Source: a virus
Lineage: Duplodnaviria; Caudoviricetes
Reading direction: 5' to 3' (one strand)
Virus record (IMG/VR): IMGVR_UViG_3300045996_001882
Location: 1-58,905 of that record
DNA: 58,905 nucleotides
The notes beneath the pieces were generated by a model. The model saw only the letters and a list, made by a program, of their open reading frames with translations. It had not been told where the DNA came from and ran no database searches. This document shows positions 1,926 through 47,618 of this stretch, in pieces (position 1 is the stretch's first letter; each line of letters begins with the position of its first letter). Both the position numbers and the translations under genes were made by a program.

Positions 1926-2226
1926 TCTTGTCCCTCCTTCGTCCCCGTGTACGAACCCGGTGGAACACGATCAGCGTGCGCATCGTGAACGTCACCGCGA
2001 GAGCGAGTAGAATCGTCCTCAGAACGTCCTCAGCGACCTGATTCGTCACGTAACGTGCGACGATACCGGACGCGAACAAAGACGCTACTGTGAACCCCAT
2101 GAACATCATGTGACGCCCGACGTCTGAACGCTCCCAGGGCGATGTGATCCAGTAGTAGATGATGAAGGACAACGCGAGTCCGAAGCCGGTCAGTATCAAG
2201 ACCGCTCGAACCGTGTCAAATGACAT
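1897..2226 (-). CDS. Membrane protein, putative holin-like (109 aa, about 3 TM)
   Basis: Three hydrophobic stretches, PWERSDVGRHMM motif, basic C-terminus. Confidence 0.6.
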   Translation of the reverse strand: MSFDTVRAVLILTGFGLALSFIIYYWITSPWERSDVGRHMMFMGFTVASLFASGIVARYVTNQVAEDVLRTILLALAVTFTMRTLIVFHRVRTRGRRRDKSADYAEDRP

Positions 2227-2560
2227 AGCCCGACCTACCAGTCTTCTTGGCCCGAACCTGAGTCCGAACGAACAGTGATACCCTCCACCACACGACGATC
2301 ACTAGGGCGATGATCGATGAGTAAGACACGAGAGCACGTCCTGGGTACTCGGCCCAGATGAACCGGGGCAAGTACGTCGATATCGCGTAGGCCACCACGA
2401 AACTGAACCAGAACAGGTGTCGCCCGACTTCCGTCGTCCGCCACGGTGCGAAGATCACGTAGAGGATCGGAAACAACCACGCCCCCACAAACGCTGCGAT
2501 GACGAAGAAGAAGTACAGGTACAACCAGAACCCGTTCAACTGCTCGACGATCGTGCTCAT
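2216..2560 (-). CDS. Membrane protein, putative holin-like paralogue (114 aa, about 3 TM)
   Basis: PWRTTEVGRHLF motif shared with neighbour; hydrophobic helices. Confidence 0.6.
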   Translation of the reverse strand: MSTIVEQLNGFWLYLYFFFVIAAFVGAWLFPILYVIFAPWRTTEVGRHLFWFSFVVAYAISTYLPRFIWAEYPGRALVSYSSIIALVIVVWWRVSLFVRTQVRAKKTGRSGYVI

Positions 2561-17821: not shown

Positions 17822-19267
17822 CTACTCGTCGTACTCGACCTTCTCGGCTACGAACAGGGAGTAACGCTTGCTGTTACCCAGCTCGCGACTGCGGATGTAC
17901 GCTCGGCGTTGAGCGTTACCCAAACCCTCGTACTCCGGCTCACTGGAGAACCTCGACTCCGCGGTCGGTCGCTTGGGAGTCCGCTTCTTCGGCACGGCGC
18001 GAGGCGCTGCAGTACGCTGGGTCGCCGATTCCTGCTGTTCGCGAGCAGCGTCAGCGAGAAGGTTCCCGCCGTTCCCCGAGATCTTCTTGATCGCCGGCGA
18101 GTTGCGACTCTGACCTGTGGAAGCGTCGTAAGCGCGACTCGACATCGAACGGTCGCTGGGCTTGCGCGGTTCGTTCGCCCTCGCCGCTGCCGCGATAGAA
18201 GCCTCACGAATGCGACGCTGGTAAGCAACCCTCGCTTCTTGATCACGCCTCTGCTGCTCGTGCTTGGCCTGTGCAGCCTTGCGACGAGCCACACTCGCTT
18301 CGCGTTCTGCCCGAGTGGGCTCGTTGCGATTGCGAGCAGCAGCCGTAGAAGAGGCACGAGCAGCACGAGTCGACATCGGCGCGCGATTCGGGTCACCCGC
18401 CGTGGTCGAGCCGTTCTTGCTCCTGCGAACGCGGTCGCGACCCTTCGTGTTCTGCAGCTTCGAGTCCGCGACCATCTGCGCCTCGAACTCGGGGCTGTTG
18501 AGGTACGCCATGAGCGCATCCTCGGTCTTCGTGCGAAGACCCTCGGAATCGAACGTCATGGCCTGCTTCAGAGCCTCGGCGTCGCTCTTCTGCTTCGCCG
18601 TCGCAGGTTCCTGAGCCTCGGCAGCCCGACGCTGCTTCTCCGACCTGTTCCCAGTCCCGAACATGATGTCCGCAGCACTCTCGCGAGAAATGCGGCCACC
18701 TTCGGCCTTGGGGTAAGTCTTCTTCGCCGCGTCGTTGTTGTTCACCACACGTGCTGCCGACGGTTCGTTGGCGCGAGCAGCCTGCTTCTCGAGAAGACTC
18801 GTGAGCTTTGAGTCACCCTTGAGTTTCGCCACCGCGTGAAGACGGCTGTCCTGCTCACTCAGGCCGGGCATCTTGTCGAAAGTGCCGTCCTGAAGCTTCT
18901 TGACCTGCGCCTGCGTGTCGTTGTTCCCTTCGGCGACGGTAGTGAGCTTGCCCTCTCGAGCACGCGCCTGTGCCTTCACCTCGGGTGTGGTGGACTTGGC
19001 AACCGTCGATGCCTGAACACCTTCGTTGCGTCCGCCCTGAGCCTCTTCACGTCGAGCCTGTGCACGAAGACGCTTCGCGACAGCGGATCGACGAGCGATC
19101 TGCTCAGGCGTCAGGTTCATCTTCTTGCTCGACGTGCGAGCGTTGATGTTCGCGACCTTCTCGCGGGCAGTCAGACGCTTCTTGGGACCGCCTCGATAGG
19201 CGTTCTTGTTCCCCTTCAGAGACCGGGAGATGGCAGCCTTCGTCGCGGCACTCAGACTACGTGCCAT
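17822..19267 (-). CDS. Highly basic Ala/Arg/Lys-rich protein (481 aa), candidate internal virion protein
   Basis: Composition; N-terminal SAATKAAISRSLKGNKN resembles NUMOD3; located between portal and MuF. Confidence 0.65.
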   Translation of the reverse strand: MARSLSAATKAAISRSLKGNKNAYRGGPKKRLTAREKVANINARTSSKKMNLTPEQIARRSAVAKRLRAQARREEAQGGRNEGVQASTVAKSTTPEVKAQARAREGKLTTVAEGNNDTQAQVKKLQDGTFDKMPGLSEQDSRLHAVAKLKGDSKLTSLLEKQAARANEPSAARVVNNNDAAKKTYPKAEGGRISRESAADIMFGTGNRSEKQRRAAEAQEPATAKQKSDAEALKQAMTFDSEGLRTKTEDALMAYLNSPEFEAQMVADSKLQNTKGRDRVRRSKNGSTTAGDPNRAPMSTRAARASSTAAARNRNEPTRAEREASVARRKAAQAKHEQQRRDQEARVAYQRRIREASIAAAARANEPRKPSDRSMSSRAYDASTGQSRNSPAIKKISGNGGNLLADAAREQQESATQRTAAPRAVPKKRTPKRPTAESRFSSEPEYEGLGNAQRRAYIRSRELGNSKRYSLFVAEKVEYDE

Positions 19268-25829: not shown

Positions 25830-26021
25830 TCAGGCAAAGCGATCGTTGCCCCCGGGAACAACGCTCCCGGGCGGCGGCCAATCACCTTGCTGAGCGTAGC
25901 CCATCACCGACCGGACTTGGGGCGTATCAGATCCGCATTCACACAGCCCACACGCCCAGCACCCGCCGCAGTCCTCACAGCGGTCGTGATGGACGTCCTC
26001 AGCGTCCTCGTCGACACTCAT
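25830..26021 (-). CDS. Cys-rich small protein (63 aa)
   Basis: HDRCEDCGGCWACGLCECG; ATGA overlap with exonuclease gene. Confidence 0.45.
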   Translation of the reverse strand: MSVDEDAEDVHHDRCEDCGGCWACGLCECGSDTPQVRSVMGYAQQGDWPPPGSVVPGGNDRFA

Positions 26022-26605
26022 CTCGCGCCACCACCCGCCGCGATGCTGCGCAGGTACGCCCGCTTCACAGCGTTGTGGCGGGCGTCGTCGAGGGCGTTGT
26101 GGAGGCCGGTCTGCTGCTTCGGCAGCTCGTCCCACGGCACGCCGAGCCGCAGCGCTTCCTGCTGGATGTCGCACGTGAACATCGGCAGCCCGTCGGGGTG
26201 GTCGATCATGGCGCCCCAGAGCTGGCAGAGGGCGACGTGGTCGTACGCCCCGTAGTCCGCCCACAGCACCGGTCGCCCGGCGGCGAGCAGGAACGCCTCG
26301 ACCTCGGCGGCGATCTGCTTGCGCGACTTCACCAGGGGACTGTGGTAGTCGAACAGCCACGATTTCGGCATGTGGTTGTTCCAGTCCCCATAAGGCTTCG
26401 GGAGGCTGGGCACGACGTTGTCCATGAGCCACTGGTTCTTGCGGATGCGGCGCTCCAGGCTGCCTCTGGTGGTGTCGCTGCTGACGGCGTAGTACTCGCG
26501 GCCATCGGCAGCGACGATCCCGATGGAGATCAGCTCGATGGTGCAGCCGTCCTCCAGGAACTCCAGGTCGTAGTCGTAGTCGGTGGTCGGAGTGTCAGCC
26601 GTCAT
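26018..26605 (-). CDS. DEDDh 3'-5' exoribonuclease, Rv2179c/RNase AS-like (195 aa)
   Basis: YDLEFLEDG.TIELISIGIV, WADYGAYDHVALCQLWG, HNALDDARH. Confidence 0.85.
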   Translation of the reverse strand: MTADTPTTDYDYDLEFLEDGCTIELISIGIVAADGREYYAVSSDTTRGSLERRIRKNQWLMDNVVPSLPKPYGDWNNHMPKSWLFDYHSPLVKSRKQIAAEVEAFLLAAGRPVLWADYGAYDHVALCQLWGAMIDHPDGLPMFTCDIQQEALRLGVPWDELPKQQTGLHNALDDARHNAVKRAYLRSIAAGGGAR

Positions 26606-27165
26606 CGCGTCGACCCCGAGTTCTGGCTCATGTACTGACGGCATTGGTCGAGCCACAGCCATACAGCCTCACGCCACTGTTTGTTGGCCAACGCCCAATT
26701 CATCTGGGCATCGAGGATGATGTCGAACGCGTCGCTCAACATCTGCGTCTCGTCCAACAACGCCGGACCCGGGCTTGAACTCTCACCGTTCATCACTGCG
26801 GTACCCGCGTTGTGGACTGTCGAGGTGACCACCCCGTCTACGTCGATAACGCGCACGTAGCGCCACATGTGCTCCTTGAAGTACCCGATCTCGTACTTGA
26901 GCACCAGTTCGCCGGGGTTCTCGACGGAGTACATGGGCTCGAACGGCCTCGAGAAGATCTTGAGGTCGCCGTTGTTCGGGTTGATCTCCCACGAGACTCC
27001 TCGAGCGAAGTCCTCGTAGCTGAGTTCTCCGCTCACCGAGTCGACAACCTGCACCCGAACTCCGCCGTGACGAAGCTCACGCTCGCCCTCGTCCGCACCC
27101 TGCTGCATTCCCACGTCCTTCTTCCTCGGCCAATCCCTCGGATTGATGTGCACGTTCACGGCCAT
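26602..27165 (-). CDS. Hypothetical protein (187 aa)
   Basis: GAGG RBS before MAVNVH; overlaps neighbours. Confidence 0.55.
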   Translation of the reverse strand: MAVNVHINPRDWPRKKDVGMQQGADEGERELRHGGVRVQVVDSVSGELSYEDFARGVSWEINPNNGDLKIFSRPFEPMYSVENPGELVLKYEIGYFKEHMWRYVRVIDVDGVVTSTVHNAGTAVMNGESSSPGPALLDETQMLSDAFDIILDAQMNWALANKQWREAVWLWLDQCRQYMSQNSGSTR

Positions 27166-29765: not shown

Positions 29766-30233
29766 TTACCTCCAGGCCGCGAGCATGTCGGCGTACGACT
29801 GCCCCTGATGGGTCACGATCTCGTGAGGTGTGGCCTTCGTCGGTCCCGTGATCTTGCCGGGGTCGGGCACGACCAGCCCGCGATGCACGCACTGGATCAC
29901 CAACGCGACACGGTTCTCGACGTTCCAGGCGCGGTAGATCCGCTGGAGGTACGTCTTGATGGTGTCCTCCGTCATGAACAGCTGGCGCCCGATCTGACCG
30001 TTCGTCAGACCCTGGCACACGAGCGCAGCGATCTCGGCCTCGCGCTTGTTCAGGAACAGCCGCTGCGCGCGCCAGTCGGGCTTCTCCTTCGAGTACCGCT
30101 TCGACATCACCCGCTCCTGCTGAAGGGGCGTCATCGGTTGATCCTGAACCTGCACCAGTTCAGCCTTGCTCCCCACACCCATCTCGTGCTCCTCGGCTCC
30201 GGCGTTGCTCGGGTTCGGCTCCGGCGTCGACAT
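29766..30233 (-). CDS. LuxR/GerE-family helix-turn-helix regulator (155 aa)
   Basis: LNKREAEIAALVCQGLTNGQIGRQLFMTEDTIKTYLQRIYRAWNVENRVALV. Confidence 0.9.
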   Translation of the reverse strand: MSTPEPNPSNAGAEEHEMGVGSKAELVQVQDQPMTPLQQERVMSKRYSKEKPDWRAQRLFLNKREAEIAALVCQGLTNGQIGRQLFMTEDTIKTYLQRIYRAWNVENRVALVIQCVHRGLVVPDPGKITGPTKATPHEIVTHQGQSYADMLAAWR

Positions 30234-38678: not shown

Positions 38679-38715
38679 TTTACAAGGCATTTCTCCACAT
38701 ACTAGGATAGGACGC
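38679..38715 (+). promoter_or_regulatory. Promoter of nucleotide-modification operon
   Basis: TTTACA-N18-TAGGAT-N7-ATG. Confidence 0.55.
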
Positions 38716-39267
38716 ATGATCATAGTAGAGGGATGTGATGGGAGCGGGAAAGACACCCTGATCCAATCACTGGCGTCGTACTTCCAGCTGCCCGTGCACG
38801 AGCGAGCCTGTACCAGTGAAGGGGGACCGATCGACGATCTCTACTCGTGGGTTCAGCGCGACGTTCTGCGCTTGCAGGAGCAGCCCCTGTCGATCTACAA
38901 CCGGCATCCTCTCGTGTCCGAGTACATCTACGGTCCGATCGTTCGTCAGTTCCTCCCGCAGGAATTCACCACGACGAACGCGCACCTCCTGATCAGGATG
39001 CTCGCCCAGCGGTCGTTCTTGATCGTGTGCGAGCCCCCCATGCACGAGGTCGCGCACAACCTGTCCGCTCAGCCGCACAACGCGCAGATGCCGGGAGTGT
39101 TCGATCACTTCCCGCAGATCTACAGTGCGTATCAGACGATGCGTCAGTTCTGGCCCGGCCAGGTCATGACGTACAACTACACCTACGGACAAGATCACTT
39201 CAACGGTCTTCTGTCCGCACTTCGCATCCACGTCGCCACTGAGAGGAACTACCGCCATGCCGCGTGA
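38716..39267 (+). CDS. dNMP kinase, thymidylate-kinase-like (183 aa)
   Basis: MIIVEGCDGSGKDT P-loop; YNRHPLVSEYIYG. Confidence 0.85.
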   Translation: MIIVEGCDGSGKDTLIQSLASYFQLPVHERACTSEGGPIDDLYSWVQRDVLRLQEQPLSIYNRHPLVSEYIYGPIVRQFLPQEFTTTNAHLLIRMLAQRSFLIVCEPPMHEVAHNLSAQPHNAQMPGVFDHFPQIYSAYQTMRQFWPGQVMTYNYTYGQDHFNGLLSALRIHVATERNYRHAA

Positions 39268-39862
39268 ATTCGTCAAGTCCGCCGAGATCATCTCTCTCTA
39301 CGACATCCAGGAGGACTCGAACGAGTGGCGCACCCAGGCCTACCCCGACACGTGCGGCCCGATGTACCAGTTCATGGGGGTGGCCGAGGAGGTCGGTGAA
39401 CTGTCGCACGCGCTCCTCAAGTACCTTCAGGGCATCCGCGGTTACGACAAGGACCGCATGCTCGCCGAGGTCGGCGACGCCGGGGGCGACATCGTCATCT
39501 TCCTGTGTGGGCTGTTCTCGTCGCTCGGCCTCGATCTCGAGCAGGAAGTGAACCAGGCGTGGGCTCACGTCAAGAACCGCAACCTGCGACAGGGTTCCGA
39601 CAACGGCTCGACCTCCGGCACCTACACGGCTCCCGCGGATGTCGACGTGCCGGCGCAGAATAACTCCCAGCAGCGCGGTGATCAGCCCAAGCCCGTGTGC
39701 GCCACGAACTGCGGGTGCTCGATGTCGGACGATGTCAAGGTCGTCAGCGTCGATGACACCCCCATCAACCAGCTCAACCCCGAGCAGCGTGAACGTCTCC
39801 TGGGCATGCCGCCCGTCAAGCCGTCCTACGACGCTGCTGCGCACGCGAACAGGATCCCCTGA
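39257..39862 (+). CDS. mazG: MazG-like dNTP pyrophosphohydrolase with C-terminal extension (201 aa)
   Basis: GVAEEVGEL...AEVGD EXXE/EXXD motifs. Confidence 0.85.
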   Translation: MPREFVKSAEIISLYDIQEDSNEWRTQAYPDTCGPMYQFMGVAEEVGELSHALLKYLQGIRGYDKDRMLAEVGDAGGDIVIFLCGLFSSLGLDLEQEVNQAWAHVKNRNLRQGSDNGSTSGTYTAPADVDVPAQNNSQQRGDQPKPVCATNCGCSMSDDVKVVSVDDTPINQLNPEQRERLLGMPPVKPSYDAAAHANRIP

Positions 39863-40752
39863 TGGTTCATCTGATCAAGGCTCCGACCGCGACGCTGCTT
39901 CACGACAAGCTGGCGAATTCGCTCCTGTTCGGTTCTCGAACCGAGCTCGATGACGCCAACTCGGTCGACGTGCAGCTTCACAACGTCGTGGCCGAGGCCG
40001 ACTCGTTCGAGTGGCTCAACAGCGCCGAGAGGTTCTGGACGACTCGTTCGAGGTGGAACACGATGGTGCGGCAGTACATCGATCCCGTGGCTCTTCAGGA
40101 ATGGCTCAACATCATCGAGGGCCGATTCCCGTCGAGCAAGCGCGGCGTCGCCGTTCTGCGCACCAACACGGTGGCCTCACGCAACACCGGCCGGGGTGTG
40201 ACCCGTCGATGGGGTTCGTGCATGTTGAGCCTGTCGTACCGCGTCAAGCCGTGGCCTCAGATCACCCTGCACTCGCGCACGTGCTACCTGGGCTACTTGA
40301 GTGTTCTCGACATGACGGTGGCCCACGTGTGTGCACGTCTCGCCGGCGCACGATCGGGTGTGGACCCAACAAGCATGAGGTTCGTGTGGAATCTCGAGAT
40401 GGCCCAGTTCCACGGCTTCAGGTGCCTCGCGTACCCGGTCGGGGGATCGGACGATTTCTTCGAAGAGTTCACCGCGCACGACGCGAGACGCGAGACTTAC
40501 CCGGGCGTGTACCTCGCACGCAAGGAGTACGACAAGATCGAGGCGCTCGACAACGCGCTGGTGCCGTACGGCGATCAGTCGTTCTCATCCAGCCGTCGGG
40601 TTCGCCGTCGGTTCCACACCCAGGTTCACGGGTACGACTACGCACTTCAGTTCGAGGGGGGTAAGGACCCCAAGAATTCGAGGGCGTACCGACCGATTCC
40701 CCACACGTCGACCGACGATCTGGACTTCACACCGATTGGGATTATCGCATGA
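39862..40752 (+). CDS. Divergent thymidylate-synthase-fold paralogue (296 aa)
   Basis: PSSKRG, WGSCMLSLSYR, LHSRTCYLGYLSVLD, AQFH in the order and spacing of TS motifs (manual alignment). Confidence 0.55.
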   Translation: MVHLIKAPTATLLHDKLANSLLFGSRTELDDANSVDVQLHNVVAEADSFEWLNSAERFWTTRSRWNTMVRQYIDPVALQEWLNIIEGRFPSSKRGVAVLRTNTVASRNTGRGVTRRWGSCMLSLSYRVKPWPQITLHSRTCYLGYLSVLDMTVAHVCARLAGARSGVDPTSMRFVWNLEMAQFHGFRCLAYPVGGSDDFFEEFTAHDARRETYPGVYLARKEYDKIEALDNALVPYGDQSFSSSRRVRRRFHTQVHGYDYALQFEGGKDPKNSRAYRPIPHTSTDDLDFTPIGIIA

Positions 40753-41561
40753 GAACCACCGGCCGCACTGTGTTCACCGATGTGCATTCGACTGAGTTCA
40801 GTCGTCTGTTCTCGATCCTTCGTCACAACCTCAACGAATCGTCGGTGTACGACCGCGGTCGGTGGCAATCCCAAGACGTCTCGACGCGCCCTGAGATGAA
40901 CACACGCGAACTCTGGAACGTGCACATCGAGTACGACATGCCGACGACGAACAAGGCGCTTGTGGACGCTGTGAGGCCTAACCGGCCGTGGGCCGACGAC
41001 CACTTCCTCGAGCGCGTGTCTGGTCAACCGCTCAACCCGCCGCCGTCGTCATCTTGGTGGCCTTTCAACCAACGGGACAATGCTCAGCACAAGTCGGCCG
41101 ACAAGTTCTCCCACACGTACCCCGAGCGATTCTGGCCCAAGTGGGCCAACGGCAAGGACGTCGAACGAAACCCCAAGAAGCACCGAGGTATTCGATTTGG
41201 TTATGGTGATCTCGCCGACGTCGTCAAGCAACTGCGAGCTGACCCTTTCACCCGCCAAGCATACCTCCCTGTCTGGTTCCCCGAGGACACCGGCGCGGTG
41301 CACGGCGAGCGAGTCCCGTGCTCGTTGGGTTACCATTTTGTCCGCAATGGCAGTAGGCTTGATTGCGTTTATAGCCTTCGCTCTTGTGACTTTTTCCGTC
41401 ATTTCCGTGATGATGTATATCTCGCTTGCCGGCTCACCGATTGGATCCAAGATCAGCTCCTGGATGTGGATGGTTATCCCTGGCTAGGCAAGCTCGTGCT
41501 CAACATCTCGAACCTGCACTGTTTCCGTGGAGACCAATGGCTGCTTGACAAGGAGGACTGA
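40749..41561 (+). CDS. Thymidylate-synthase-fold enzyme, probable dCMP C5-modifying (methyl/hydroxymethyl) transferase (270 aa)
   Basis: HFLERV, TYPERF, PFTRQAYL, VPCSLGYHF, LRSCDFFRHFRDD, NLHCF; Asp at E. coli ThyA Asn177 position. Confidence 0.8.
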   Translation: MRTTGRTVFTDVHSTEFSRLFSILRHNLNESSVYDRGRWQSQDVSTRPEMNTRELWNVHIEYDMPTTNKALVDAVRPNRPWADDHFLERVSGQPLNPPPSSSWWPFNQRDNAQHKSADKFSHTYPERFWPKWANGKDVERNPKKHRGIRFGYGDLADVVKQLRADPFTRQAYLPVWFPEDTGAVHGERVPCSLGYHFVRNGSRLDCVYSLRSCDFFRHFRDDVYLACRLTDWIQDQLLDVDGYPWLGKLVLNISNLHCFRGDQWLLDKED

Positions 41562-41566
41562 CCAAC

Positions 41567-41713
41567 ATGGATCGCAAAGCTCGCATATCGGTGTGGTGGG
41601 ATCGAGTAGGCTTACCCTCATTCCTCGGCTTTCTGATCGTGTGCTTCGTGATGTCTCTGGCGTTCGGCGTGTTCTTCGTTCTTCGTGGTCTGGGGTGGCT
41701 CCCGTGCCCGTGA
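41567..41713 (+). CDS. Small membrane protein (48 aa)
   Basis: Own translation MDRKARISVWWDRVGLPSFLGFLIVCFVMSLAFGVFFVLRGLGWLPCP; AGGAGG upstream; GTGA overlap with deaminase. Confidence 0.5.
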   Translation: MDRKARISVWWDRVGLPSFLGFLIVCFVMSLAFGVFFVLRGLGWLPCP

Positions 41714-42144
41714 CGCCTCGTCCCACACGCCATGACATGCTGATGCAGATTGCTCATGTGGTGGCCTCTCGTTCGACGTGCGATCGACTCAACGTCGGTG
41801 CAGTTCTGTCTCGCGAGGGTCGCGTTCTGTCCATGGGCTACAACGGCCCGGCGAGCGGTCTGCCCCACTGTGCACACGAGAACGGGGAGCCGTGCGACGC
41901 TGCGATCCATGCAGAGGCCAACGCGATCACGTGGGCTGCTCGTGACGGAATACGGATCGTCGCGTCTGATCTGTACGTCACGCACATGCCGTGCCTGGGG
42001 TGCGCGAAGTTGATCGCCCAGGCAGGAATTCGCCGAGTCATTTTCCAGAGTTCGTATCGCGACCGGGCAGGACTTGACTTACTCACACGTGCTCGCGTAG
42101 GTTTCGTCAGTTACGATCCGACATTGTCGGGAGGAGGACTGTAA
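41710..42144 (+). CDS. dCMP deaminase (144 aa)
   Basis: RSTC.R..VGAV, GYNG, HAEANAI, PCLGCAK. Confidence 0.92.
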   Translation: MTPRPTRHDMLMQIAHVVASRSTCDRLNVGAVLSREGRVLSMGYNGPASGLPHCAHENGEPCDAAIHAEANAITWAARDGIRIVASDLYVTHMPCLGCAKLIAQAGIRRVIFQSSYRDRAGLDLLTRARVGFVSYDPTLSGGGL

Positions 42145-44696
42145 TGGGTGTGGGGAATCCACGCATTGAGCTGGCGGTTCGTAATGCCGACTGCACTGCT
42201 TGCAAGCTTCACGTCCAGGCTGACGGCGACGACCGCTGTGTGACCGCGAGGGGTTCCCACGCGTCCGACGTTCTCATTCTGACCAAGCATCCACTCGGGC
42301 CCCGTGCGCTCAAGGAGCTGAAGACGTACCTCGAGCGCGCGGGTTTCGACCCCGAGCAGTTGTTGTACACGGGCGCAAGCAAGTGCTTGACCTGGGATCT
42401 CGAACCGACGAAGACGACGATGAAGGCGTGCAAGCCTTACCTTGAGGCTGAGGTCGAAACGTCGAAGGTCAAGTGGATTCTTGCGATCGGCAACGAGGCT
42501 CTGTATTCCGCCGCCGGCAAGTCCGGGATCATGAAGCACCGCGGGATCACCTACGACGGTGTGGGTGGTTCTCGAGTCGTCGCGACGATCTCGCCGGCGA
42601 TGGTGTACCGCAATCCCGGCCAGAAGAGCGGGTTCGAGGCTGACTTGCGTTACTTCTACAACCTCGTGACCAAGAATCCGACAATCGCCGCTGCCGAGCC
42701 CGATGAAATCCACACCGTTGACACGAAGGAAAAGCTGCACGCATTCCTGGAAACACTCGCCAACGGTGAAGCAGCGGCCTACGACCTCGAGACGACCGGG
42801 TTCGAAGAGTACGTCTCAGACGCTGCTATCGTGTCAATGGCGGTGACAGTACGAACGCGTGACGCGAAGACGTCAGCGACGACTACAGAGTGCTTTGCGG
42901 TGCCCCTCTGGCATCCCGATTCGCCGTGGCGTACCGCGTGGCGTCGCATCATGGAACTCATCGGCAAGTACCTCGCTCGAGTTCCCAAGCGCATCGCTCA
43001 CAACGGGAAGTTCGACAACAGGTGGTGTCGTCAGTTCAACGCTCGCGTCAAGCTGACATTCGACACGATGCTGGCGGCACACCTCCTCGACGAGAATCGA
43101 CCCAAGGGGCTCAAGCCTCTCGCACGTACGCTCCTCGGTGCGCCGCCGTGGGACATCCAGATTCACAACGTCAAGGGCAAGCCGTGGTGGGAAGTTCACG
43201 GGCTCGACAACATCCTGAAGTACAACGGGCTCGACACCTGGCACACCCTTCGCCTTTACGACCTGTTCGTCGAGGAGTTGAAGAAGAACCCGCGGTTGGC
43301 CAAGATCATGCAGTACCTGATGATGCCCGCCAACGAGGTGTTCACCGACGCCGAGATGCACGGGGTGTGGGTCGACCTCAAGCGTTTGACGGCCAACTAC
43401 CAGATCGTCCTCGAGCGCCTCGCCGATGTCGAACAACGCCTCTCGAAGTGGATTCCTGAGGACCACGGATTTGGCGAGGTCAACTTCAACCCCTCGAACT
43501 TCGCACGGTGGTGGTTGTTCACCCATCTCAAGCTGCCCGTCCTCGCCCGTGGCAAGCAGAAGGAAGATGGTTCACCTGGAGCGCCGTCGATGTCTGAGGC
43601 TGTGATGCTCGAGCTTCAGGAGATCCACGAAGTTCCACGTATGTTGCTCGAACGCGCGGGCTATGAGAAGAATCGACAGTTCTTCGCTGCGTACTCGAAC
43701 CTGGTTGACAGTCGCGGTCGTATCCACACGTCGTTCAAGCTGACTGGGACCGTGACAGGGCGACTTTCTTCGGGCAAGGAAGAAGCCGACAAGGTGTCAG
43801 GCCGCGTACCGCAGCGAGGTGTGAACCTTCAACAAGTTCCCCGTGATTCGTTCGTGCGCGGTGTGTTCGGCGCCGCACCCGGGAACTACTTCGTTGAGTG
43901 CGACTACTCCCAGGTTGAACTTCGAGTTGCTGCCTTCCTCGCCCAAGAGCGTACGATGTTGCACCTGTACGCAACGGGTCAGGACATTCACATGGCGATG
44001 GCTATGAGGATGACCGGCAAGGCTGCGAAGGACGTCACCAAGGAGGAGCGCAAGAAGGCCAAGGCCGTGAACTTCGGGTTCTTGTACGGCATGGGCTGGA
44101 ACAAATTCATCTCCACTGCATGGCTCAACTACGGCGTTCGAGTGACCGAGGAGGAAGCACAGGCATTCCGACGGGCATTCTTCGATCAGTTCCCGATGCT
44201 GCTCAAGTGGCACGCTTCGTGCAAGGCGTTCGCGCGCAAGCACGGGTATGTCATCAGCCCGCTGGGTCGCAAGCGCAACCTTCCCGACATCTACTCCCAG
44301 GTTCAGTCAGTGGCGAACGAAGCTGGACGTCAGGCGATCAACTCGCCCGTTCAATCGTTCGCATCTGACATGGCATTGTGGTCGATGGTGCTCGTCAATC
44401 AGCAGTTCAAGAAGCGCGGGATGAAGGCCACACCGATCGGGACCGTTCACGATGCTGTGAACTACGAAGTGCCCGCCGACGAGGTACACATCGCTGTTCC
44501 GATCATCAAGCACACGATGGAGAACTTGCCCCTCCAGAAGTACTTCGGCATCGACCTGAACGTTCCGATCATCGGTGACGTCAAGCTGGGAACTCACTGG
44601 GGTGACTCGCTCGAGATGGACAACGAGGTGTCTGTCAACGGTGAGCGCATCCTTGAGTGGATGAATGAGAAGGGGTTTGTGACCAATGCCAGTTGA
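42144..44696 (+). CDS. polA: Family A DNA polymerase with N-terminal UDG-family-4-like domain and 3'-5' exonuclease (850 aa)
   Basis: CTACKLH; YDLETTG, HNGKFD, YNGLD; TGRLSS, DYSQVELR, RKKAKAVNFGFLYG, TVHDA. Confidence 0.95.
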   Translation: MGVGNPRIELAVRNADCTACKLHVQADGDDRCVTARGSHASDVLILTKHPLGPRALKELKTYLERAGFDPEQLLYTGASKCLTWDLEPTKTTMKACKPYLEAEVETSKVKWILAIGNEALYSAAGKSGIMKHRGITYDGVGGSRVVATISPAMVYRNPGQKSGFEADLRYFYNLVTKNPTIAAAEPDEIHTVDTKEKLHAFLETLANGEAAAYDLETTGFEEYVSDAAIVSMAVTVRTRDAKTSATTTECFAVPLWHPDSPWRTAWRRIMELIGKYLARVPKRIAHNGKFDNRWCRQFNARVKLTFDTMLAAHLLDENRPKGLKPLARTLLGAPPWDIQIHNVKGKPWWEVHGLDNILKYNGLDTWHTLRLYDLFVEELKKNPRLAKIMQYLMMPANEVFTDAEMHGVWVDLKRLTANYQIVLERLADVEQRLSKWIPEDHGFGEVNFNPSNFARWWLFTHLKLPVLARGKQKEDGSPGAPSMSEAVMLELQEIHEVPRMLLERAGYEKNRQFFAAYSNLVDSRGRIHTSFKLTGTVTGRLSSGKEEADKVSGRVPQRGVNLQQVPRDSFVRGVFGAAPGNYFVECDYSQVELRVAAFLAQERTMLHLYATGQDIHMAMAMRMTGKAAKDVTKEERKKAKAVNFGFLYGMGWNKFISTAWLNYGVRVTEEEAQAFRRAFFDQFPMLLKWHASCKAFARKHGYVISPLGRKRNLPDIYSQVQSVANEAGRQAINSPVQSFASDMALWSMVLVNQQFKKRGMKATPIGTVHDAVNYEVPADEVHIAVPIIKHTMENLPLQKYFGIDLNVPIIGDVKLGTHWGDSLEMDNEVSVNGERILEWMNEKGFVTNAS

Positions 44697-45747
44697 GCTG
44701 TACGTCGATCCTGACACCGGGATGAACATCGTCACGCACTCGATGGTGAAGGCGTTTCGACGGTGCCCGCGTCAGGCCATGTACAAGTACGTGGACCGAC
44801 TCAAGCCCAAGGCGCTGTCGAAGCCCCTGAAGCGCGGAACGTGGATCCACGCACTACTCGAGACGCATTACAAGGGCGGTGACTGGCGGGACACGCACAA
44901 GAAGCTCAGCGAGCAATTCTACCGGCTGTTCGTGGAAGAACAGGAGGCCCTCGGCGATCTCCCGCGCGAGATCCGTCGACTGATGCAGTCGTACTTCTGG
45001 CACTACCGCGACGACGCTGACTGGAAGGTACTCGAGACCGAGTTCACCATCGAGACCGAACTCTTCCCGGGCACGATCTACCGCGGACGTGTGGACAATC
45101 TCGTCGAGACCCCTTACGGTCTTTACGTGGTCGACCACAAGAGCCATCGCACGTTGCCCGACCTGTCAGACCAATTGCTCGACCCGCAGTCCGTTCTGTA
45201 CGTGTGGGCTGCACGTCGACTCGGCATGCCTGTGAAGGGATTCATCTGGAACTACATCAAGACGGATCCCCCCAAGCAGCTTCGATTCAAGAAGGACGGC
45301 AACCTGTACGCGAAGCAGGGTGCAACAGACTACCCGACCGCGTACCGTAGCCTGATGGCACGCGGCATCGACCCGCGCGACGAGGAGAACGAGAAGTGGG
45401 TGGCGTATCTGAAGCCCCTTCAGAACCAGCGTTACCGACCGGACTCTACGCTGCAGTTGTCCCCCTTCTTCCGTCGCGATACGTTGGAAAAGGATGACGC
45501 GATGATCGAACGAGCAGTCAAGGAGGTGATCCACACCGTCAAGCGAATGCAGAAGTACCCCTTCGACAAGCGCGATTACGTCGAGCGTGTGGTCAACCGT
45601 GACTGCAAGTACTTCTGCTCATACCGTTCGATCTGCACGTCTGACCTGATGGGCGGCAATTCCGAACTGATCGCTCGACAGCAGTTCCGCGTCGGCGACC
45701 CGATGGACTACTACCGCGACGACAAGCTGGAGGAAACAACGTCATGA
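44686..45747 (+). CDS. Cas4/RecB-like PD-(D/E)XK exonuclease (353 aa)
   Basis: CPRQ, GTWIH, GRVD...VDHKS, Q...Y, C-terminal CKYFCSYRSIC. Confidence 0.85.
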   Translation: MPVELYVDPDTGMNIVTHSMVKAFRRCPRQAMYKYVDRLKPKALSKPLKRGTWIHALLETHYKGGDWRDTHKKLSEQFYRLFVEEQEALGDLPREIRRLMQSYFWHYRDDADWKVLETEFTIETELFPGTIYRGRVDNLVETPYGLYVVDHKSHRTLPDLSDQLLDPQSVLYVWAARRLGMPVKGFIWNYIKTDPPKQLRFKKDGNLYAKQGATDYPTAYRSLMARGIDPRDEENEKWVAYLKPLQNQRYRPDSTLQLSPFFRRDTLEKDDAMIERAVKEVIHTVKRMQKYPFDKRDYVERVVNRDCKYFCSYRSICTSDLMGGNSELIARQQFRVGDPMDYYRDDKLEETTS

Positions 45748-45995
45748 GTAATGACCCGCACTACGTCCTGCGTTACACGATCGAGCGTGTGGATCACATC
45801 AAGCCCGAGGCCCGTAGTTCGTACCGAACGGATTCGTTGCCCGAGCCGAAGGAGACGCGTGTCGTGACGGAACTCGCCTCCCACACGCTGAAGCGCGGTG
45901 ACCTGACTAGTCTGATCGCGACGGCGATCAAGCACCTCGATCTGGTGGAGGACGACAACATCCACGACCCGAAGCCGAAGGGTAATGTTCGCTGA
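45744..45995 (+). CDS. Hypothetical protein (83 aa)
   Basis: Coupled to both neighbours; GGAGG RBS. Confidence 0.6.
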   Translation: MSNDPHYVLRYTIERVDHIKPEARSSYRTDSLPEPKETRVVTELASHTLKRGDLTSLIATAIKHLDLVEDDNIHDPKPKGNVR

Positions 45996-46786
45996 TGAAG
46001 ATCACTCTGATCTCGAGCAGTACCCTGGTGCCGGCGCGGGGCGCGATCGAAGGTCCACCGTGGGCGATCAACAAGTGGCTCCCCGAGGACGGCCGTCGAG
46101 GCGACGACGAGTGGAGTCCCGACTTCGCTGACGACGCTGACATGATCACCGAGTTCGCGGGCCGTGCGTGTTACGAGTCGTGGGACAGGCCGAACCCCAA
46201 CACGGCTCACAACGCGGACTACGTGCGCAACATCCTGGGGCAGCAGCACGAGTCTGTGCTGGAACACTCATCCCTGACGTTCTACGTCGAGGAGGTGTCG
46301 CGTTCGATGACGCTCGAGTTGGTGCGTCACAGGCACCTGAGTTACTCGCAGCGGTCTCAACGTTACGTCAACGAGTCGTTGTCCGATTTCGTGATTCCGG
46401 GCGATCTCAGCGACCGTCAGCGCGATCCGTACATCGCCCGGCTGATCGAGGAACTCAAGGATCATCACAAGTCGGCCGCGAACCTCTACGGTGAGATCGT
46501 CGAGGCCCTGATGGACACCTGCGTAGACGAGCGGGGCGAGCTGTACCCCAAGCTGGGAATCAAGCAGGCGCGAGGTGCTGCTCGGGCGGCGCTGCTCGAG
46601 TCGACCCACACCAACATCGTCGTCACGGGCAACTTGCGCGCCTGGCGTGACATGCTCAAGAAGCGGTGGCACGTCGCTGCGGAGAGGGAAATCCGCGAGT
46701 TTGCCGGCTTGATCCTCGCCGACATACGATCAATCGCACCTAACAGCGTTCAGGACATTCCGTCCGAACCCTACGGAACGGAGTGA
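45995..46786 (+). CDS. thyX: Flavin-dependent thymidylate synthase ThyX (263 aa)
   Basis: EFAGRACYES, HESVLEH, RHRHLSYSQRSQRY, NLRAWR, AEREIR. Confidence 0.95.
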   Translation: MKITLISSSTLVPARGAIEGPPWAINKWLPEDGRRGDDEWSPDFADDADMITEFAGRACYESWDRPNPNTAHNADYVRNILGQQHESVLEHSSLTFYVEEVSRSMTLELVRHRHLSYSQRSQRYVNESLSDFVIPGDLSDRQRDPYIARLIEELKDHHKSAANLYGEIVEALMDTCVDERGELYPKLGIKQARGAARAALLESTHTNIVVTGNLRAWRDMLKKRWHVAAEREIREFAGLILADIRSIAPNSVQDIPSEPYGTE

Positions 46787-46787
46787 C

Positions 46788-47618
46788 GTGGCGACCACCA
46801 CCGCGCGCAAGGTCGCAGCACGCAAGGACTACGACGCGATTGCTGCGAGCAAGATCACGAGCCCCACGGCTCAGGGTCTGTTCCGCCCGCGCATTCTCGT
46901 CTACGGCAAGAATAAGAAGGGCAAGACCCGTTTCTGCACCACGCCCGGCAAGGGCAAAGTGCTGATCGTCGACCCCGAAGAGGGCACGAAGGCGATGAAG
47001 CGGCTCGACCCGGACGTCTGGCCGATCTCGAAGTGGGAAGACATCGATGATGTCTACAACTTCCTGAAGGGGGGCAATCACAACTACGAGTACGTCGCCC
47101 TCGACGGGATGACGCGCATTCACGACTTCGCCATTCGGTGGGTCATGAACGTGGCAGCTGAAGCCCGCCTCGACTCGAAGCCTGTTCTGGTGCAGAAGCA
47201 GCACTACGGCCAGGCAGGTCGACTGACGTCGGACCTGATCACGAACTTCCACAACCTCCCCATGGGTGTCATCTACACCGCTCAGGAGCGCATGGAGGCC
47301 AGTGCGGGGTTCGACGAGGAGGACGACGACGTCGAGCAGGCTGCTGCTCAGATCGTTCCCGCACTTCCGAAGGGTGCACGCGCCGCGCTCAACCAGATCG
47401 TGGACGTGATCGGCCGAATCTACATCGTGAAGGTCGAGAACCCGAAGGACCCGGAGAAGGTCATTCTCCAACGACGGCTGTTCGTGGAACCGAGCGAGCG
47501 ATTCGACACGGGTTACCGTTCGGACTTCCAGCTGCCGCCATTCATCAAGAACCCGACAGTTCCGCGTCTCATGGATCTGATCAACACGGGTAAGAGCGAA
47601 AGGGTTACCGCCAAGTGA
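46788..47618 (+). CDS. AAA_24 / Sak4-like RecA-family ATPase (276 aa)
   Basis: YGKNKKGKT, IVDPEEG, VALDG, YTAQE. Confidence 0.8.
   Translation: MATTTARKVAARKDYDAIAASKITSPTAQGLFRPRILVYGKNKKGKTRFCTTPGKGKVLIVDPEEGTKAMKRLDPDVWPISKWEDIDDVYNFLKGGNHNYEYVALDGMTRIHDFAIRWVMNVAAEARLDSKPVLVQKQHYGQAGRLTSDLITNFHNLPMGVIYTAQERMEASAGFDEEDDDVEQAAAQIVPALPKGARAALNQIVDVIGRIYIVKVENPKDPEKVILQRRLFVEPSERFDTGYRSDFQLPPFIKNPTVPRLMDLINTGKSERVTAK

What the first reader, a model, noticed from the sequence alone, without database searches (positions are those of the whole stretch)
38679..44696. Candidate cytosine-replacement pathway: kinase + MazG + two Asp-type TS-fold enzymes + deaminase + polymerase, with ThyX elsewhere
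Seen: one tightly coupled operon with its own promoter, running from dNMP kinase to polymerase, plus an intact thyX at 45995. In the 270-aa enzyme RSCDFFRHFRDD puts Asp where E. coli ThyA has Asn177. Established: Asn there selects dUMP and Asp selects dCMP (T4 dCMP hydroxymethylase); modified-base phages typically pair the synthase with a kinase and a dNTPase that removes the canonical nucleotide. Inference: ThyX and the deaminase supply dTMP, so the TS-fold enzymes probably make a C5-modified dCMP, the kinase phosphorylates it and MazG destroys dCTP. I saw no glycosyltransferase, so the final base is unknown and may be new.
Basis: partly seen in the sequence, partly recalled or inferred. Interest (0 to 1): 0.9.

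Follow-up and report, generated by a model that had tools for sequence, protein, structure and literature searches.

The report
Phage gene set for altered cytosine
A complete 59-kb phage genome carries, just ahead of its DNA polymerase, a conserved gene set that probably makes a chemically altered cytosine for the phage's DNA; it is built around a known type of retargeted thymidylate-synthase relative plus a second, uncharacterised enzyme of the same shape that also occurs in cultured phages such as mycobacteriophage Muddy.

Summary
The window is a complete phage genome with terminal repeats. On the + strand, overlapping genes encode a P-loop kinase, a MazG-like pyrophosphohydrolase, a 296-aa protein (TS-A), a 270-aa thymidylate-synthase homologue (TS-B), a dCMP-family deaminase and PolA. 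ThyX lies in the same gene string, not elsewhere. Alignment with E. coli ThyA places TS-B Asp222 at Asn177. TS-A has no sequence-family match, but its confident model has the TS fold, and its invariant Cys, Arg and Asp fit the catalytic register.

'Asp177-type TS + in-cis deaminase + MazG-like enzyme + PolA' is a published metavirome signature of cytosine-modified phage DNA, so the kind is known. The product cannot be called: TS-B fits none of the published methyl, hydroxymethyl or hydroxyl signatures. Its short C-terminal tail resembles the non-reductive enzymes. TS-A is uncharacterised.

The same gene order occurs in cultured phages (Zuko, Muddy, Opt-155, P744, PMBT14), and 39 of 40 metagenomic loci pair TS-A with TS-B. 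No glycosyltransferase was found. No modified base has been observed. This scan has already noted the same tandem pair on other DNA.

The parts
38679..38708 (+). Promoter-like site (TTTACA, 18 nt, TAGGAT) ending 7 nt before the kinase ATG, in the only intergenic gap (53 nt) upstream of the module.
   Evidence: It is a consensus match only, and the number of such sites in the region is no higher than in shuffled sequence.
38716..39267 (+). P-loop nucleotide kinase of 183 aa, dTMP-kinase-like. Inferred to phosphorylate the modified dCMP.
   Evidence: phrog_761 E 8.3e-12. PF02223 and TIGR00041 match only the P-loop and fall far below their cut-offs. A homologue lies upstream of TS-A in 37 of 40 related loci.
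39257..39862 (+). MazG-like all-alpha nucleoside-triphosphate pyrophosphohydrolase of 201 aa. Inferred dCTP-to-dCMP enzyme; specificity unknown.
   Evidence: phrog_715 E 6.8e-6. Weak PDB matches to MazG-like proteins 2q73 and 5ie9. The same slot is filled in 37 of 37 related loci, and 9 of 10 sampled slot ORFs match pyrophosphohydrolase or dUTPase PHROGs of differing families.
39862..40752 (+). TS-A: a 296-aa thymidylate-synthase-fold protein of an unannotated family. Invariant Cys120, Arg139 and Asp150, with Tyr142 where ThyA has Asp169. Function unknown.
   Evidence: AF2 model with pLDDT 92.8. VIA Z 16.3 to the HY126 dCMP hydroxylase AfhB, 15.1 to MilA and 10.9-11.9 to classical TS. Invariant residues. 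0 of 48 family members hit PF00303.
40749..41561 (+). TS-B: a 270-aa thymidylate-synthase homologue with Asp222 at the ThyA Asn177 position and Cys191 as nucleophile. Asp214 corresponds to D169, Arg188 lies three residues before the Cys, and His218 sits at G173. Only 13 residues follow the H207 column.
41737..42144 (+). dCMP-family zinc deaminase with HAE and PCxxC motifs. The ORF is open from a GTG at 41527, but the ATG at 41737 is the likelier start.
   Evidence: PF00383 E 1.6e-21 and phrog_174 E 1.5e-52. TIGR02571 E 6.9e-30, below its cut-off. A homologue lies between TS-B and PolA in 37 of 40 related loci.
42144..44696 (+). Family A DNA polymerase of 850 aa with an N-terminal UDG-like domain and a 3'-5' exonuclease domain. 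Presumed to incorporate the altered dCTP.
   Evidence: PF00476 E 4.9e-78, PF01612 E 3.7e-18 and PF03167 E 5.4e-10.
44686..45995 (+). PD-(D/E)XK exonuclease (44686-45747) and an 83-aa ORF (45744-45995). They link PolA to ThyX through overlapping stop and start codons; listed as context.
   Evidence: PF12705 E 2e-25. Coordinates.
45995..46786 (+). ThyX, the flavin-dependent thymidylate synthase, which gives a dUMP-to-dTMP route that needs no DHFR.
   Evidence: PF02511 E 3.1e-47. TIGR02170 at 160.9 bits, above its cut-off of 87.9. No DHFR in the genome.

Best explanation
This is a pre-replicative cytosine-modification cassette of a lytic siphophage. The host is probably an actinobacterium.

Proposed flow; every chemical step is inferred, none was shown here:
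1. The MazG-like pyrophosphohydrolase turns dCTP into dCMP. This depletes the canonical nucleotide and feeds the next step.
2. TS-B binds dCMP through Asp222. Cys191 attacks C6, and a one-carbon unit from methylene-tetrahydrofolate is placed on C5.
3. The kinase, followed by host NDP kinase, raises the product to the triphosphate.
4. The phage PolA builds it into DNA.
5. The deaminase plus ThyX make dTMP from dCMP without producing dihydrofolate.

I favour a non-reductive outcome for step 2, that is 5-hydroxymethyl-dCMP or another non-methyl C5 group, over 5-methyl-dCMP. TS-B lacks the C-terminal segment that ThyA and the PaMx74 enzyme keep, and it lines the pocket with polar residues (Arg188, His218, Asp221).

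TS-A is a second Cys/Arg/Asp enzyme of the same fold. It has Tyr where the folate-binding Asp169 sits in ThyA. It most likely performs a second C5 chemistry on a cytosine nucleotide, using a different cofactor or acting on the TS-B product. Its reaction is unknown.
For: **Shown here**
- TS-B has Asp in the Asn177 column, an intact Cys, and the equivalents of Arg166, Asp169, Trp80, Tyr94 and His207. These are invariant or nearly so in 40 of 40 sequences.
- TS-B scores 15-24 bits against NCBIfam thymidylate-synthase equivalogs whose cut-offs are 108-405 bits.
- A genuine ThyX coexists with TS-B in the window and in two related genomes: the one behind L007, and Zuko.
- Among 40 IMG/VR loci holding TS-A: TS-B 39, kinase 37, deaminase 37, PolA 37. 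A pyrophosphohydrolase-type ORF fills the slot between kinase and TS-A.
- The same gene order occurs in Zuko, Muddy, Opt-155, P744 and PMBT14.
- Residues after the H207 column: ThyA 57, PaMx74 TS 63, T4 gp42 30, RB69 gp48 14, TS-B family 10-37 (window 13).
- No DHFR in the genome.
- TS-A has the TS fold. Cys120, Arg139 and Asp150 stay invariant down to 19% identity.

**From papers (sections read)**
- Asp177-type TS homologues, PRA-PH/MazG domains and dCMP deaminases co-occur specifically on contigs of cytosine-modified DNA (PMC8670742).
- 104 of 149 deaminases on modified contigs lie within 3 kb of a TS gene, against 17 of 277 on unmodified contigs. DNA_pol_A and its exonuclease domain are among the top five neighbours (bioRxiv 10.1101/2024.12.05.627091).
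Against: - No modified base has been observed for this phage or for any cultured carrier. Five searches found no report on a carrier phage. This is absence of evidence only.
- The substrate specificities of MazG and the kinase are unknown. The pyrophosphohydrolase is not even orthologous across the family: only 1 of 40 loci matches the window's protein by tblastn.
- TS-B fits none of the validated signatures. At the L143 position, ThyA has Leu, T4 has Asp, RB69 has Glu and PaMx74 has Asn, while TS-B has Arg. The step from Asp177 to dCMP, and any product call, are therefore extrapolations.
- Muddy, Opt-155 and P744 carry no ThyX or second TS. That fits a dTMP-supply role for the module.
- Six-base palindromes are depleted: median O/E 0.86, and 13 of 47 fall below the non-palindrome 5th percentile. 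The DNA is therefore not obviously immune to type II enzymes. The 5mC phage PaMx74 shows the same pattern, 13 of 42.
Confidence: 0.5

Rival explanations
1. A dTMP bypass. TS-B methylates dCMP to 5-methyl-dCMP and the in-cis deaminase converts it to dTMP. The module is then a thymidylate supply route, and the virion DNA is canonical or only partly methylated.
For: - Yang et al. 2024 (section read) found that 5 of 7 tested deaminase-linked TS homologues make 5mdCMP. They propose that the in-cis deaminases make dTMP from 5mdCMP.
- Muddy, Opt-155 and P744 have no ThyX, and each has only one PF00303 place.
- ThyX lies within 10 kb in only 1 of 40 related loci.
- Earlier notes of this scan propose the same route in small uncultured bacteria (not tested here).
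Against: - The window, its close relative and Zuko also carry ThyX, which would be redundant.
- A conserved pyrophosphohydrolase and a dedicated kinase are not needed for a dTMP route.
- TS-B lacks the long C-terminal segment kept by the two reductive, methyl-forming enzymes compared.
- There is no DHFR to recycle dihydrofolate.
- TS-A has no role in this scheme.
Confidence: 0.2
2. TS-A and TS-B form one heterodimeric enzyme. The TS fold is an obligate dimer with shared active sites, so the pair would catalyse a single reaction rather than two.
For: - TS-B is adjacent to TS-A in 39 of 40 loci.
- In the window the two genes overlap by 4 nt at the stop and start codons.
- Their features are complementary. 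TS-B keeps Asp169 but lacks the C-terminal segment and has Arg-Gln where ThyA has Arg126-Arg127. TS-A spans the whole TS chain in structural alignment but has Tyr at position 169.
Against: - Each protein keeps its own invariant Cys, Arg and Asp set, as expected of two self-sufficient active sites.
- No fused form was found among longer proteins, which is weak evidence.
Confidence: 0.15
3. Nucleotide-pool manipulation without incorporation. The module drains dCTP or makes a modified nucleotide that acts as an inhibitor or anti-defence molecule, and the virion DNA stays canonical.
For: No direct support. It would explain the lack of any report of unusual DNA in the many cultured carriers and the palindrome depletion.
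Against: The module is invariably placed directly upstream of the phage's own polymerase (37 of 40 loci). The published association is with modified DNA itself.
Confidence: 0.1
4. TS-B is simply a divergent thymidylate synthase that makes dTMP from dUMP, as annotated in GenBank records of related phages.
For: PF00303 is just above its cut-off, and relatives are annotated 'thymidylate synthase'.
Against: - Asp rather than Asn at position 177 in all 40 sequences.
- Scores far below every NCBIfam TS equivalog cut-off.
- The C-terminal segment is missing.
- ThyX coexists with it.
Confidence: 0.05

Closest known systems
Metavirome neighbourhood 'Asp177-type TS homologue + in-cis dCMP-family deaminase + PRA-PH/MazG + DNA_pol_A/exonuclease', linked to cytosine-modified phage DNA (MetaGPA; Yang et al. 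2021 eLife PMC8670742; Yang et al. 2024 bioRxiv 10.1101/2024.12.05.627091)
   Same: Same domain set and same adjacency. The Asp177-type TS lies next to the deaminase, PolA with its exonuclease domain lies directly downstream, and a MazG-like enzyme lies upstream.
   Different: Those papers do not describe a second TS-fold gene in the sections I read. Whether TS-B-type sequences were among their tested enzymes is in supplements that I could not see. The DNA of this phage has not been assayed.
Xp12/PaMx74-type 5-methylcytosine module (NTP pyrophosphohydrolase, TS-homologue dCMP methylase, deaminase, DHFR)
   Same: The order pyrophosphohydrolase-TS-deaminase, and Asp at position 177. The TS-B core is 32% identical to PaMx74 gp52 over 90 residues. 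Six-base palindrome depletion is similar.
   Different: PaMx74 TS has 63 residues after the H207 column, against 13 here. It has Asn rather than Arg three residues before the Cys, and Gly rather than His at position 173. PaMx74 carries DHFR and the window does not. PaMx74 has no TS-A-sized gene in the block between its pyrophosphohydrolase (gp53), TS (gp52) and deaminase (gp51), by annotation; a homology search for TS-A in that record was not run.
T4 hydroxymethylcytosine pathway (gp56 dCTPase, gp42 dCMP hydroxymethylase, gp1 dNMP kinase, Cd deaminase, glucosyltransferases)
   Same: Same logic: pyrophosphatase, Asp-type TS homologue, kinase and deaminase. Both enzymes have a short C-terminal tail.
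   Different: T4 gp42 has Asp at the L143 position and Gly at 173, where TS-B has Arg and His. No glycosyltransferase was found here. T4 gp56 is annotated dUTPase in its record and the window's enzyme is MazG-like; that they belong to different folds is recalled, not tested here.
Flavin-dependent 5-hydroxy-dCMP synthases (RB69 gp48, DLP3 gp80, HY126 AfhB; Lee et al. 2026 NAR PMC13326640; PDB 9iqu and 9iqc)
   Same: AfhB is the best structural match of both TS-A (Z 16.3) and TS-B (Z 16.7, tied with human TS at 16.6). All are short proteins with the Asp177 type.
   Different: The diagnostic D169N is absent: TS-B has Asp and TS-A has Tyr. Sequence identity is 10-16%. There are no sugar-activation or glycosyltransferase genes.

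Membership tests
Thymidylate synthase ThyA (dUMP to dTMP) | Asn at E. coli position 177, which selects dUMP | tested here: not met
   Asp in this column in TS-B and in 40 of 40 family sequences.
Thymidylate synthase ThyA (dUMP to dTMP) | Score above the curated NCBIfam equivalog cut-offs | tested here: not met
   TS-B scores 15.3-23.9 bits against cut-offs of 108-405 bits. TS-A has no hit.
Thymidylate synthase ThyA (dUMP to dTMP) | C-terminal segment after His207 that closes over the folate. That role is recalled from the literature, not tested here. | tested here: not met
   13 residues follow the H207 column in TS-B, against 57 in E. coli ThyA. The structural alignment to E. coli TS ends at chain residue 222.
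TS superfamily fold with Cys nucleophile | TS fold with a catalytic Cys ahead of the central strand | tested here: met
   TS-B: Z 15.4-16.7 to TS, MilA and AfhB, with Cys191 in the C146 column. TS-A: Z 10.9-16.3, with Cys120 invariant in 48 of 48 sequences. The TS-A register is inferred from secondary structure and a non-significant hhalign match.
T4-type dCMP hydroxymethylase | Asp at position 177 | tested here: met
T4-type dCMP hydroxymethylase | Acidic residue at the L143 position (rule in Lee et al. 2026) | tested here: not met
   TS-B has an invariant Arg three residues before the Cys, where T4 has Asp and RB69 has Glu.
T4-type dCMP hydroxymethylase | Product is 5-hydroxymethyl-dCMP | not testable with these tools
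   Needs an enzyme assay or LC-MS.
Xp12/PaMx74-type dCMP methylase module | Asp177-type TS flanked by an NTP pyrophosphohydrolase and a deaminase | tested here: met
   In the window, TS-A is inserted between the pyrophosphohydrolase and TS-B.
Xp12/PaMx74-type dCMP methylase module | Full-length TS C-terminus and a phage DHFR, as in PaMx74 | tested here: not met
   Tail of 13 residues against 63. No PF00186 match in the genome.
5-hydroxy-dCMP synthase (RB69 gp48 / AfhB type) | Asn at the Asp169 position (diagnostic in Lee et al. 2026) | tested here: not met
   TS-B has Asp214 (37 of 40 Asp, 3 Glu). TS-A has Tyr142 (41 of 41). The RB69 gp48 control shows Asn in the same alignment.
5-hydroxy-dCMP synthase (RB69 gp48 / AfhB type) | Bound flavin cofactor | not testable with these tools
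   Needs purified protein.
MetaGPA modified-cytosine neighbourhood | Asp177-type TS within 3 kb of a dCMP-family deaminase, with DNA_pol_A and its exonuclease domain adjacent | tested here: met
   TS-B ends at 41561, the deaminase spans 41737-42144 and PolA starts at 42144.
MetaGPA modified-cytosine neighbourhood | PRA-PH (PF01503) domain protein nearby | tested here: inconclusive
   The 201-aa protein has no Pfam hit at E 0.01. It does match the MazG-like phrog_715 and, weakly, MazG-like PDB chains.
MetaGPA modified-cytosine neighbourhood | DNA of the contig shown to resist C-specific enzymes | not testable with these tools
   No wet-lab data exist for this record.
ThyX (flavin-dependent thymidylate synthase) | Score above the TIGR02170 cut-off | tested here: met
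   160.9 bits against a cut-off of 87.9.

The most novel reading that the evidence does not exclude
TS-A and TS-B together make a C5-substituted deoxycytidylate that is none of the three known TS-derived products (methyl, hydroxymethyl, hydroxyl). One route: TS-A uses its Cys to re-open the TS-B product to the exocyclic methylene and traps it with a new nucleophile. Another: TS-A uses a non-folate cofactor. Either would give a new DNA base in a phage family that spans actinobacterial and proteobacterial hosts and includes the therapy phage Muddy.
Probability: 0.15. Interest if true: 0.85.

Novelty: new variant of a known kind. Interest (0 to 1): 0.55.

Why it matters
- **Scope.** If the module does what its parts suggest, a large and widely cultured group of siphophages packages DNA with an altered cytosine that nobody has reported. 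The group includes Mycobacterium phage Muddy, more than 60 Gordonia phages, and Streptomyces, Serratia, Yersinia and Pseudomonas phages.
- **Practical consequences.** An altered cytosine would affect restriction and defence evasion, phage engineering, sequencing-based methylation calls and therapeutic phage choice.
- **Enzymology.** TS-A is an unannotated branch of the thymidylate synthase fold: 251 representative clusters, none recognised by Pfam among the 48 scanned. It keeps the Cys, Arg and Asp catalytic set, so it is a candidate for new pyrimidine C5 chemistry.
- **Testability.** The question is cheap to settle because cultured carriers exist.

Tried and rejected
**Steps that gave no usable answer**
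- Complex prediction of TS-A with TS-B, both as alignments: verdict 'no answer'. It counts neither for nor against binding.
- Search for fused or longer forms of TS-A: none scored. This is weak evidence.
- Profile-profile comparison of the TS-A and TS-B families: not significant, probability 3.3% and 0.3%. The second alignment does place Cys120, Arg139, Asp150 and His184 on Cys191, Arg211, Asp222 and His257. I use that register only as consistent with the fold.
- Sequence homology of TS-A to the position-equivalent ORFs of Yersinia phage P744 and Serratia phage Opt-155: not established. hhalign probabilities were 1-12%, with only GxCM and (H/Y)xR motif-level likeness. The link to the Gram-negative phages rests on synteny and on the PMBT14 262-aa protein, which is the third-best BFVD structural match.
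- Sequence searches of TS-A against PDB, as a single sequence and as a profile: nothing at E up to 10.
With the single protein P0293 it found nothing.

**Restriction-site statistics**
- Four-base palindromes show no avoidance: median O/E 0.965, with GATC at 586 copies.
- Six-base palindromes are depleted.
- The control shows the same depletion in the 5mC phage PaMx74 and none in 16-18 kb segments of T4 and RB69.
- I rejected this statistic as a test of whether cytosine is modified.

**Literature**
- No paper held both 'actinobacteriophage' and 'dCMP hydroxymethylase'.
- A search on actinophage names together with 'thymidylate synthase homolog' or 'modified cytosine' listed only genome announcements and surveys.
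- 'mycobacteriophage' plus 'hydroxymethylcytosine' gave 14 papers, none about these phages judging by title and abstract.
- The P744 paper has no mention of restriction, modification or thymidylate.
- Searches on PMBT14, GTE2, FF47, Tlacuache and Serbin gave only announcements.
- In Pope et al. 2017 I saw only passages.
- The GTE2 paper is not held.
- He et al. 2026 (Nat Chem Biol, AfhB) was not read. I know it only through Lee et al. 2026 and the PDB titles.
- Supplements are closed. Supplementary Figures 1E and 2A of Yang et al. 2024 may show whether TS-B-type enzymes were tested.

**Considered and dropped**
- A phylogeny of TS-B with the four reference enzymes. Identity is too low and the references too few to assign a product.
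- Sequencing-run look-ups. Base calls would not reveal C5 modifications.

Full report
**What the window is.** The window is a whole IMG/VR virus record of 58,905 bp. It has direct terminal repeats and is rated 100% complete. Its G+C content is about 0.60 throughout. The minus-strand left half encodes large terminase, portal, head protease or morphogenesis protein, scaffold, major head, major tail, tape measure, minor tail proteins and two holin-family genes. The + strand from 33.5 kb to 48.7 kb encodes the replication and nucleotide genes. ARAGORN finds no tRNA. The nearest cultured relatives of the module are actinobacteriophages. blastn of 38679-44696 finds 107 phage records, the best being Streptomyces phages Zuko and KimJongPhill at 31-33% coverage and 68-69% identity. 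tblastn of the 296-aa protein finds 85 records, all phages of Gordonia, Mycobacterium or Mycobacteroides, Streptomyces, Microbacterium or Curtobacterium.

**The observation.**
- Kinase, 38716-39267.
- MazG-like protein, 39257-39862, overlapping the kinase by 11 nt.
- TS-A, 39862-40752, overlapping by 1 nt.
- TS-B, 40749-41561, overlapping by 4 nt.
- Deaminase: the ORF is open from 41527, and the domain begins at residue 68 of that ORF. The ATG at 41737 gives a 135-aa protein of the size seen in relatives.
- PolA, 42144-44696, overlapping the deaminase by 1 nt.
- PD-(D/E)XK exonuclease, 44686-45747.
- An 83-aa ORF, 45744-45995.
- ThyX, 45995-46786.
- A Sak4-like ATPase starting at 46788.

ThyX is therefore part of the same overlapping gene string. 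The promoter-like site at 38679-38708 lies in the only 53-nt gap, 7 nt ahead of the kinase ATG. As a pattern match it is no more frequent than chance.

**TS-B.**
- *Sequence and profile matches.* A single-sequence HMMER search of PDB gives the L. casei N229D mutant with dCMP bound (1njc) as its best hit. It aligns the second Asp of RSCDFFRHFRDD with residue 229. A profile of 45 homologues hits MilA (CMP hydroxymethylase, E 2.1e-6) and 1njc (E 4.6e-6) in the same register.
- *Alignment with reference enzymes.* I fetched E. coli K-12 ThyA, T4 gp42, RB69 gp48 and PaMx74 gp52. I aligned them with 15 TS-B-type sequences.
  - Every TS-B-type sequence has Cys in the C146 column, Arg at R166, Asp at D169, Asp at N177, Trp at W80, Tyr at Y94 and His at H207.
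  - Each has Gln at R127, His or Tyr at G173, Asp or Asn at F176, and all but two have Phe at Y209.
  - The controls behave as published: T4 D177, RB69 N169 and D177, PaMx74 D177.
- *The L143 position.* Counting back from the Cys, the residue at the published L143 position is Arg. It is invariant in 40 of 40 sequences. ThyA has Leu there, T4 Asp, RB69 Glu and PaMx74 Asn.
- *The C-terminal tail.* After the H207 column, ThyA has 57 residues and PaMx74 TS has 63; T4 gp42 has 30 and RB69 gp48 has 14. The TS-B family has 10-37, and the window's protein has 13.
- *Structure.* The AF2 model (pLDDT 82.3) matches AfhB, human TS and MilA at Z 15.7-16.7. Its alignment to E. coli TS stops at chain residue 222.
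- *Conclusion.* TS-B is a true TS homologue with a cytosine-type pocket and the folate-contact residues W80 and D169 retained. It has none of the three published product signatures. Its architecture resembles the non-reductive enzymes.

**TS-A.**
- *No family annotation.* It matches no Pfam, NCBIfam or PDB sequence. Its 570 near-length relatives in the listing carry no Pfam annotation.
- *Fold.* A model from 41 sequences is confident, with pLDDT 92.8 and pTM 0.90. Foldseek and VIA-align both rank TS-fold enzymes first. The HY126 flavin-dependent dCMP hydroxylase AfhB gives E 6.6e-7 and Z 16.3 (rmsd 3.6 over 186 residues). MilA gives Z 15.1, and classical thymidylate synthases give Z 10.9-11.9 spanning model residues 8-296.
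- *Family size.* An exhaustive profile search finds only 251 representative clusters at E 0.001. Of 48 diverse members scanned, none hits PF00303.
- *Invariant residues.* Across those 48 sequences, down to 19% identity, the invariant residues are Arg64, Tyr72, Gly118, Cys120, Arg139, Asp150 and Trp176.
- *Register.* In the model, Cys120 precedes a strand, Arg139 to Tyr142 end the next strand, and Asp150 lies in the first turn of the following helix. That is the arrangement of C146, R166, D169 and N177 in TS. A non-significant hhalign match to the TS-B family gives the same register, adding His184 on His257.
- *Conclusion.* 'Asp-type TS-fold enzyme' is a fair description of TS-A. It carries Tyr at the folate-binding Asp169 position, and the residue correspondence is inferred rather than proven.

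**Conservation of the module.** I fetched 40 IMG/VR loci through TS-A and scanned them by tblastn.

| Gene | Loci with a match, of 40 |
|---|---|
| TS-B immediately downstream | 39 (the exception ends at the contig edge) |
| Kinase | 37 |
| Deaminase | 37 |
| PolA | 37 |
| SNF2 helicase | 38 |
| ThyX | 1 |
| PaMx74-type DHFR | 0 |

- The slot between kinase and TS-A holds an ORF in 37 of 37 loci. Only one resembles the window's MazG-like protein by sequence.
- Nine of 10 sampled slot ORFs match nucleotide pyrophosphohydrolase or dUTPase PHROGs of several different families. The activity, rather than the gene, appears to be conserved.
- The order kinase, pyrophosphohydrolase (annotated dUTPase in some records), hypothetical protein, 'thymidylate synthase', deaminase, PolA is annotated in Zuko, Opt-155, P744 and PMBT14. 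Muddy has it too, with an unannotated gene in the deaminase position.
- Among complete genomes checked, ThyX is present in the window, the genome behind L007 and Zuko. It is absent from Muddy, Opt-155 and P744. Each has a single PF00303 place, which is TS-B.
- The window has no DHFR.
- None of 54 ORFs scanned matched a glycosyltransferase, carbamoyltransferase or other known DNA-hypermodification enzyme. This set includes every ORF of 140 aa or more from my ORF list.

**What is known.** I read sections of three papers.
- *Yang et al. 2021 (PMC8670742).* TS-domain proteins are the top association with cytosine-modified metavirome DNA, and position 177 is Asp on modified contigs. PRA-PH and dCMP-deaminase domains co-occur with them.
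- *Yang et al. 2024 (bioRxiv 10.1101/2024.12.05.627091).* Of 149 deaminases on modified contigs, 104 lie within 3 kb of a TS gene, against 17 of 277 on unmodified contigs. The top neighbouring domains are TS, MafB19-deaminase, PRA-PH, DNA_pol_A and its exonuclease. Five of 7 tested TS homologues make 5mdCMP. Many of the deaminases prefer 5mC, which suggests dTMP synthesis from 5mdCMP. Xp12 and PaMx74 replace C with 5mC.
- *Lee et al. 2026 (PMC13326640).* They give three residue rules: N177D for dCMP, L143D/E for non-methyl products, and D169N for flavin-dependent 5-hydroxy-dCMP synthases.

The window's module is therefore an instance of a published signature. I did not find the tandem TS-A partner or the TS-B residue signature in these sections or in my searches. 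This scan's own earlier notes describe the same tandem pair on at least four other phage records, with the same reading. I reached mine before reading them.

**How it most likely works.** The anatomy is shown. Each chemical step is inferred.
1. The pyrophosphohydrolase supplies dCMP.
2. TS-B adds a one-carbon unit at C5 of dCMP.
3. The kinase and host NDP kinase raise the product to the triphosphate.
4. PolA incorporates it.
5. The deaminase plus ThyX make dTMP without producing dihydrofolate.

The coexistence of ThyX with TS-B in three genomes argues that TS-B is not there to make dTMP. The missing C-terminal segment, the polar pocket and the absence of DHFR tilt me towards a non-reductive product. 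My rough odds for the TS-B product:

| TS-B product | Odds |
|---|---|
| 5-hydroxymethyl type | 40% |
| 5-methyl | 25% |
| Something else | 15% |
| No DNA modification at all | 20% |

TS-A keeps a full catalytic set but not the folate-binding Asp. I therefore expect a second reaction, or a different cofactor, on a cytosine nucleotide. I cannot say which.

**Evidence against, and controls.**
- No modified base has been seen in any carrier.
- The carriers without ThyX fit a dTMP-bypass reading.
- The pyrophosphohydrolase and the kinase are only family-level calls.
- Six-base palindromes are depleted: median O/E 0.86, and 13 of 47 lie below the non-palindrome 5th percentile. The 5mC phage PaMx74 shows the same (median 0.83; 13 of 42). 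Segments of T4 and RB69 do not (4 of 34 and 1 of 35). At most, this hints that any modification here is not a bulky, fully protective one.

**Verdict.** The system is a new variant of a known kind. It is a published type of cytosine-modification neighbourhood that carries an uncharacterised second TS-fold enzyme, and its TS homologue has a signature outside the published product rules. It is cheap to test, because the module sits in cultured phages.

Noticed in passing
window 41562-41736: About 175 nt separate the TS-B stop from the likely deaminase ATG. A 48-aa ORF (41567-41713) lies in this gap. In related loci the deaminase match starts about 800-1,300 nt after the start of the TS-B match, which leaves little or no such spacer. 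No promoter-like or terminator-like site was called in the gap.
   Followed up: partly
L007-L046, slot between kinase and TS-A; window 39257-39862: The pyrophosphohydrolase slot is always filled, but by proteins of different PHROG families (phrog_12184/173/18650, phrog_671; phrog_715 in the window). This looks like repeated non-orthologous replacement of one activity at a fixed position.
   Followed up: partly
whole window; L005 (PaMx74); L048 (T4); L049 (RB69): Six-base palindromes are depleted in the window to the same degree as in the 5mC phage PaMx74. They are not depleted in T4 or RB69 segments. Four-base palindromes are not depleted, except CTAG.
   Followed up: yes
window 42144-42680: PolA begins with a UDG-superfamily domain (PF03167, E 5.4e-10, residues 47-162) ahead of the exonuclease and polymerase domains. 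Its catalytic competence was not examined.
   Followed up: no
   Followed up: partly
window 26018-26662 (-) and 29766-30233 (-): A 214-aa protein carries an Rv2179c-like 3'-5' exoribonuclease domain (E 9.8e-10). A 155-aa protein carries a LuxR/GerE-type HTH domain (E 5.5e-13). Both lie among small early genes.
   Followed up: no
window 1897-2226 (-) and 2216-2560 (-): Two adjacent, overlapping genes both match Pfam Phage_holin_2 (E 3.8e-12 and 9.9e-15).
   Followed up: no
window 17822-19267 (-): A 481-aa ORF between the portal gene and the head protease or morphogenesis gene has no Pfam or PHROG match.
   Followed up: no
L049 6048-6596 (RB69p045): RB69 carries a gene annotated 'thymidylate kinase' three genes from its 5-hydroxy-dCMP synthase gp48. 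It resembles the window's kinase only at the P-loop (BLASTP E 0.004 over 19 residues).
   Followed up: partly
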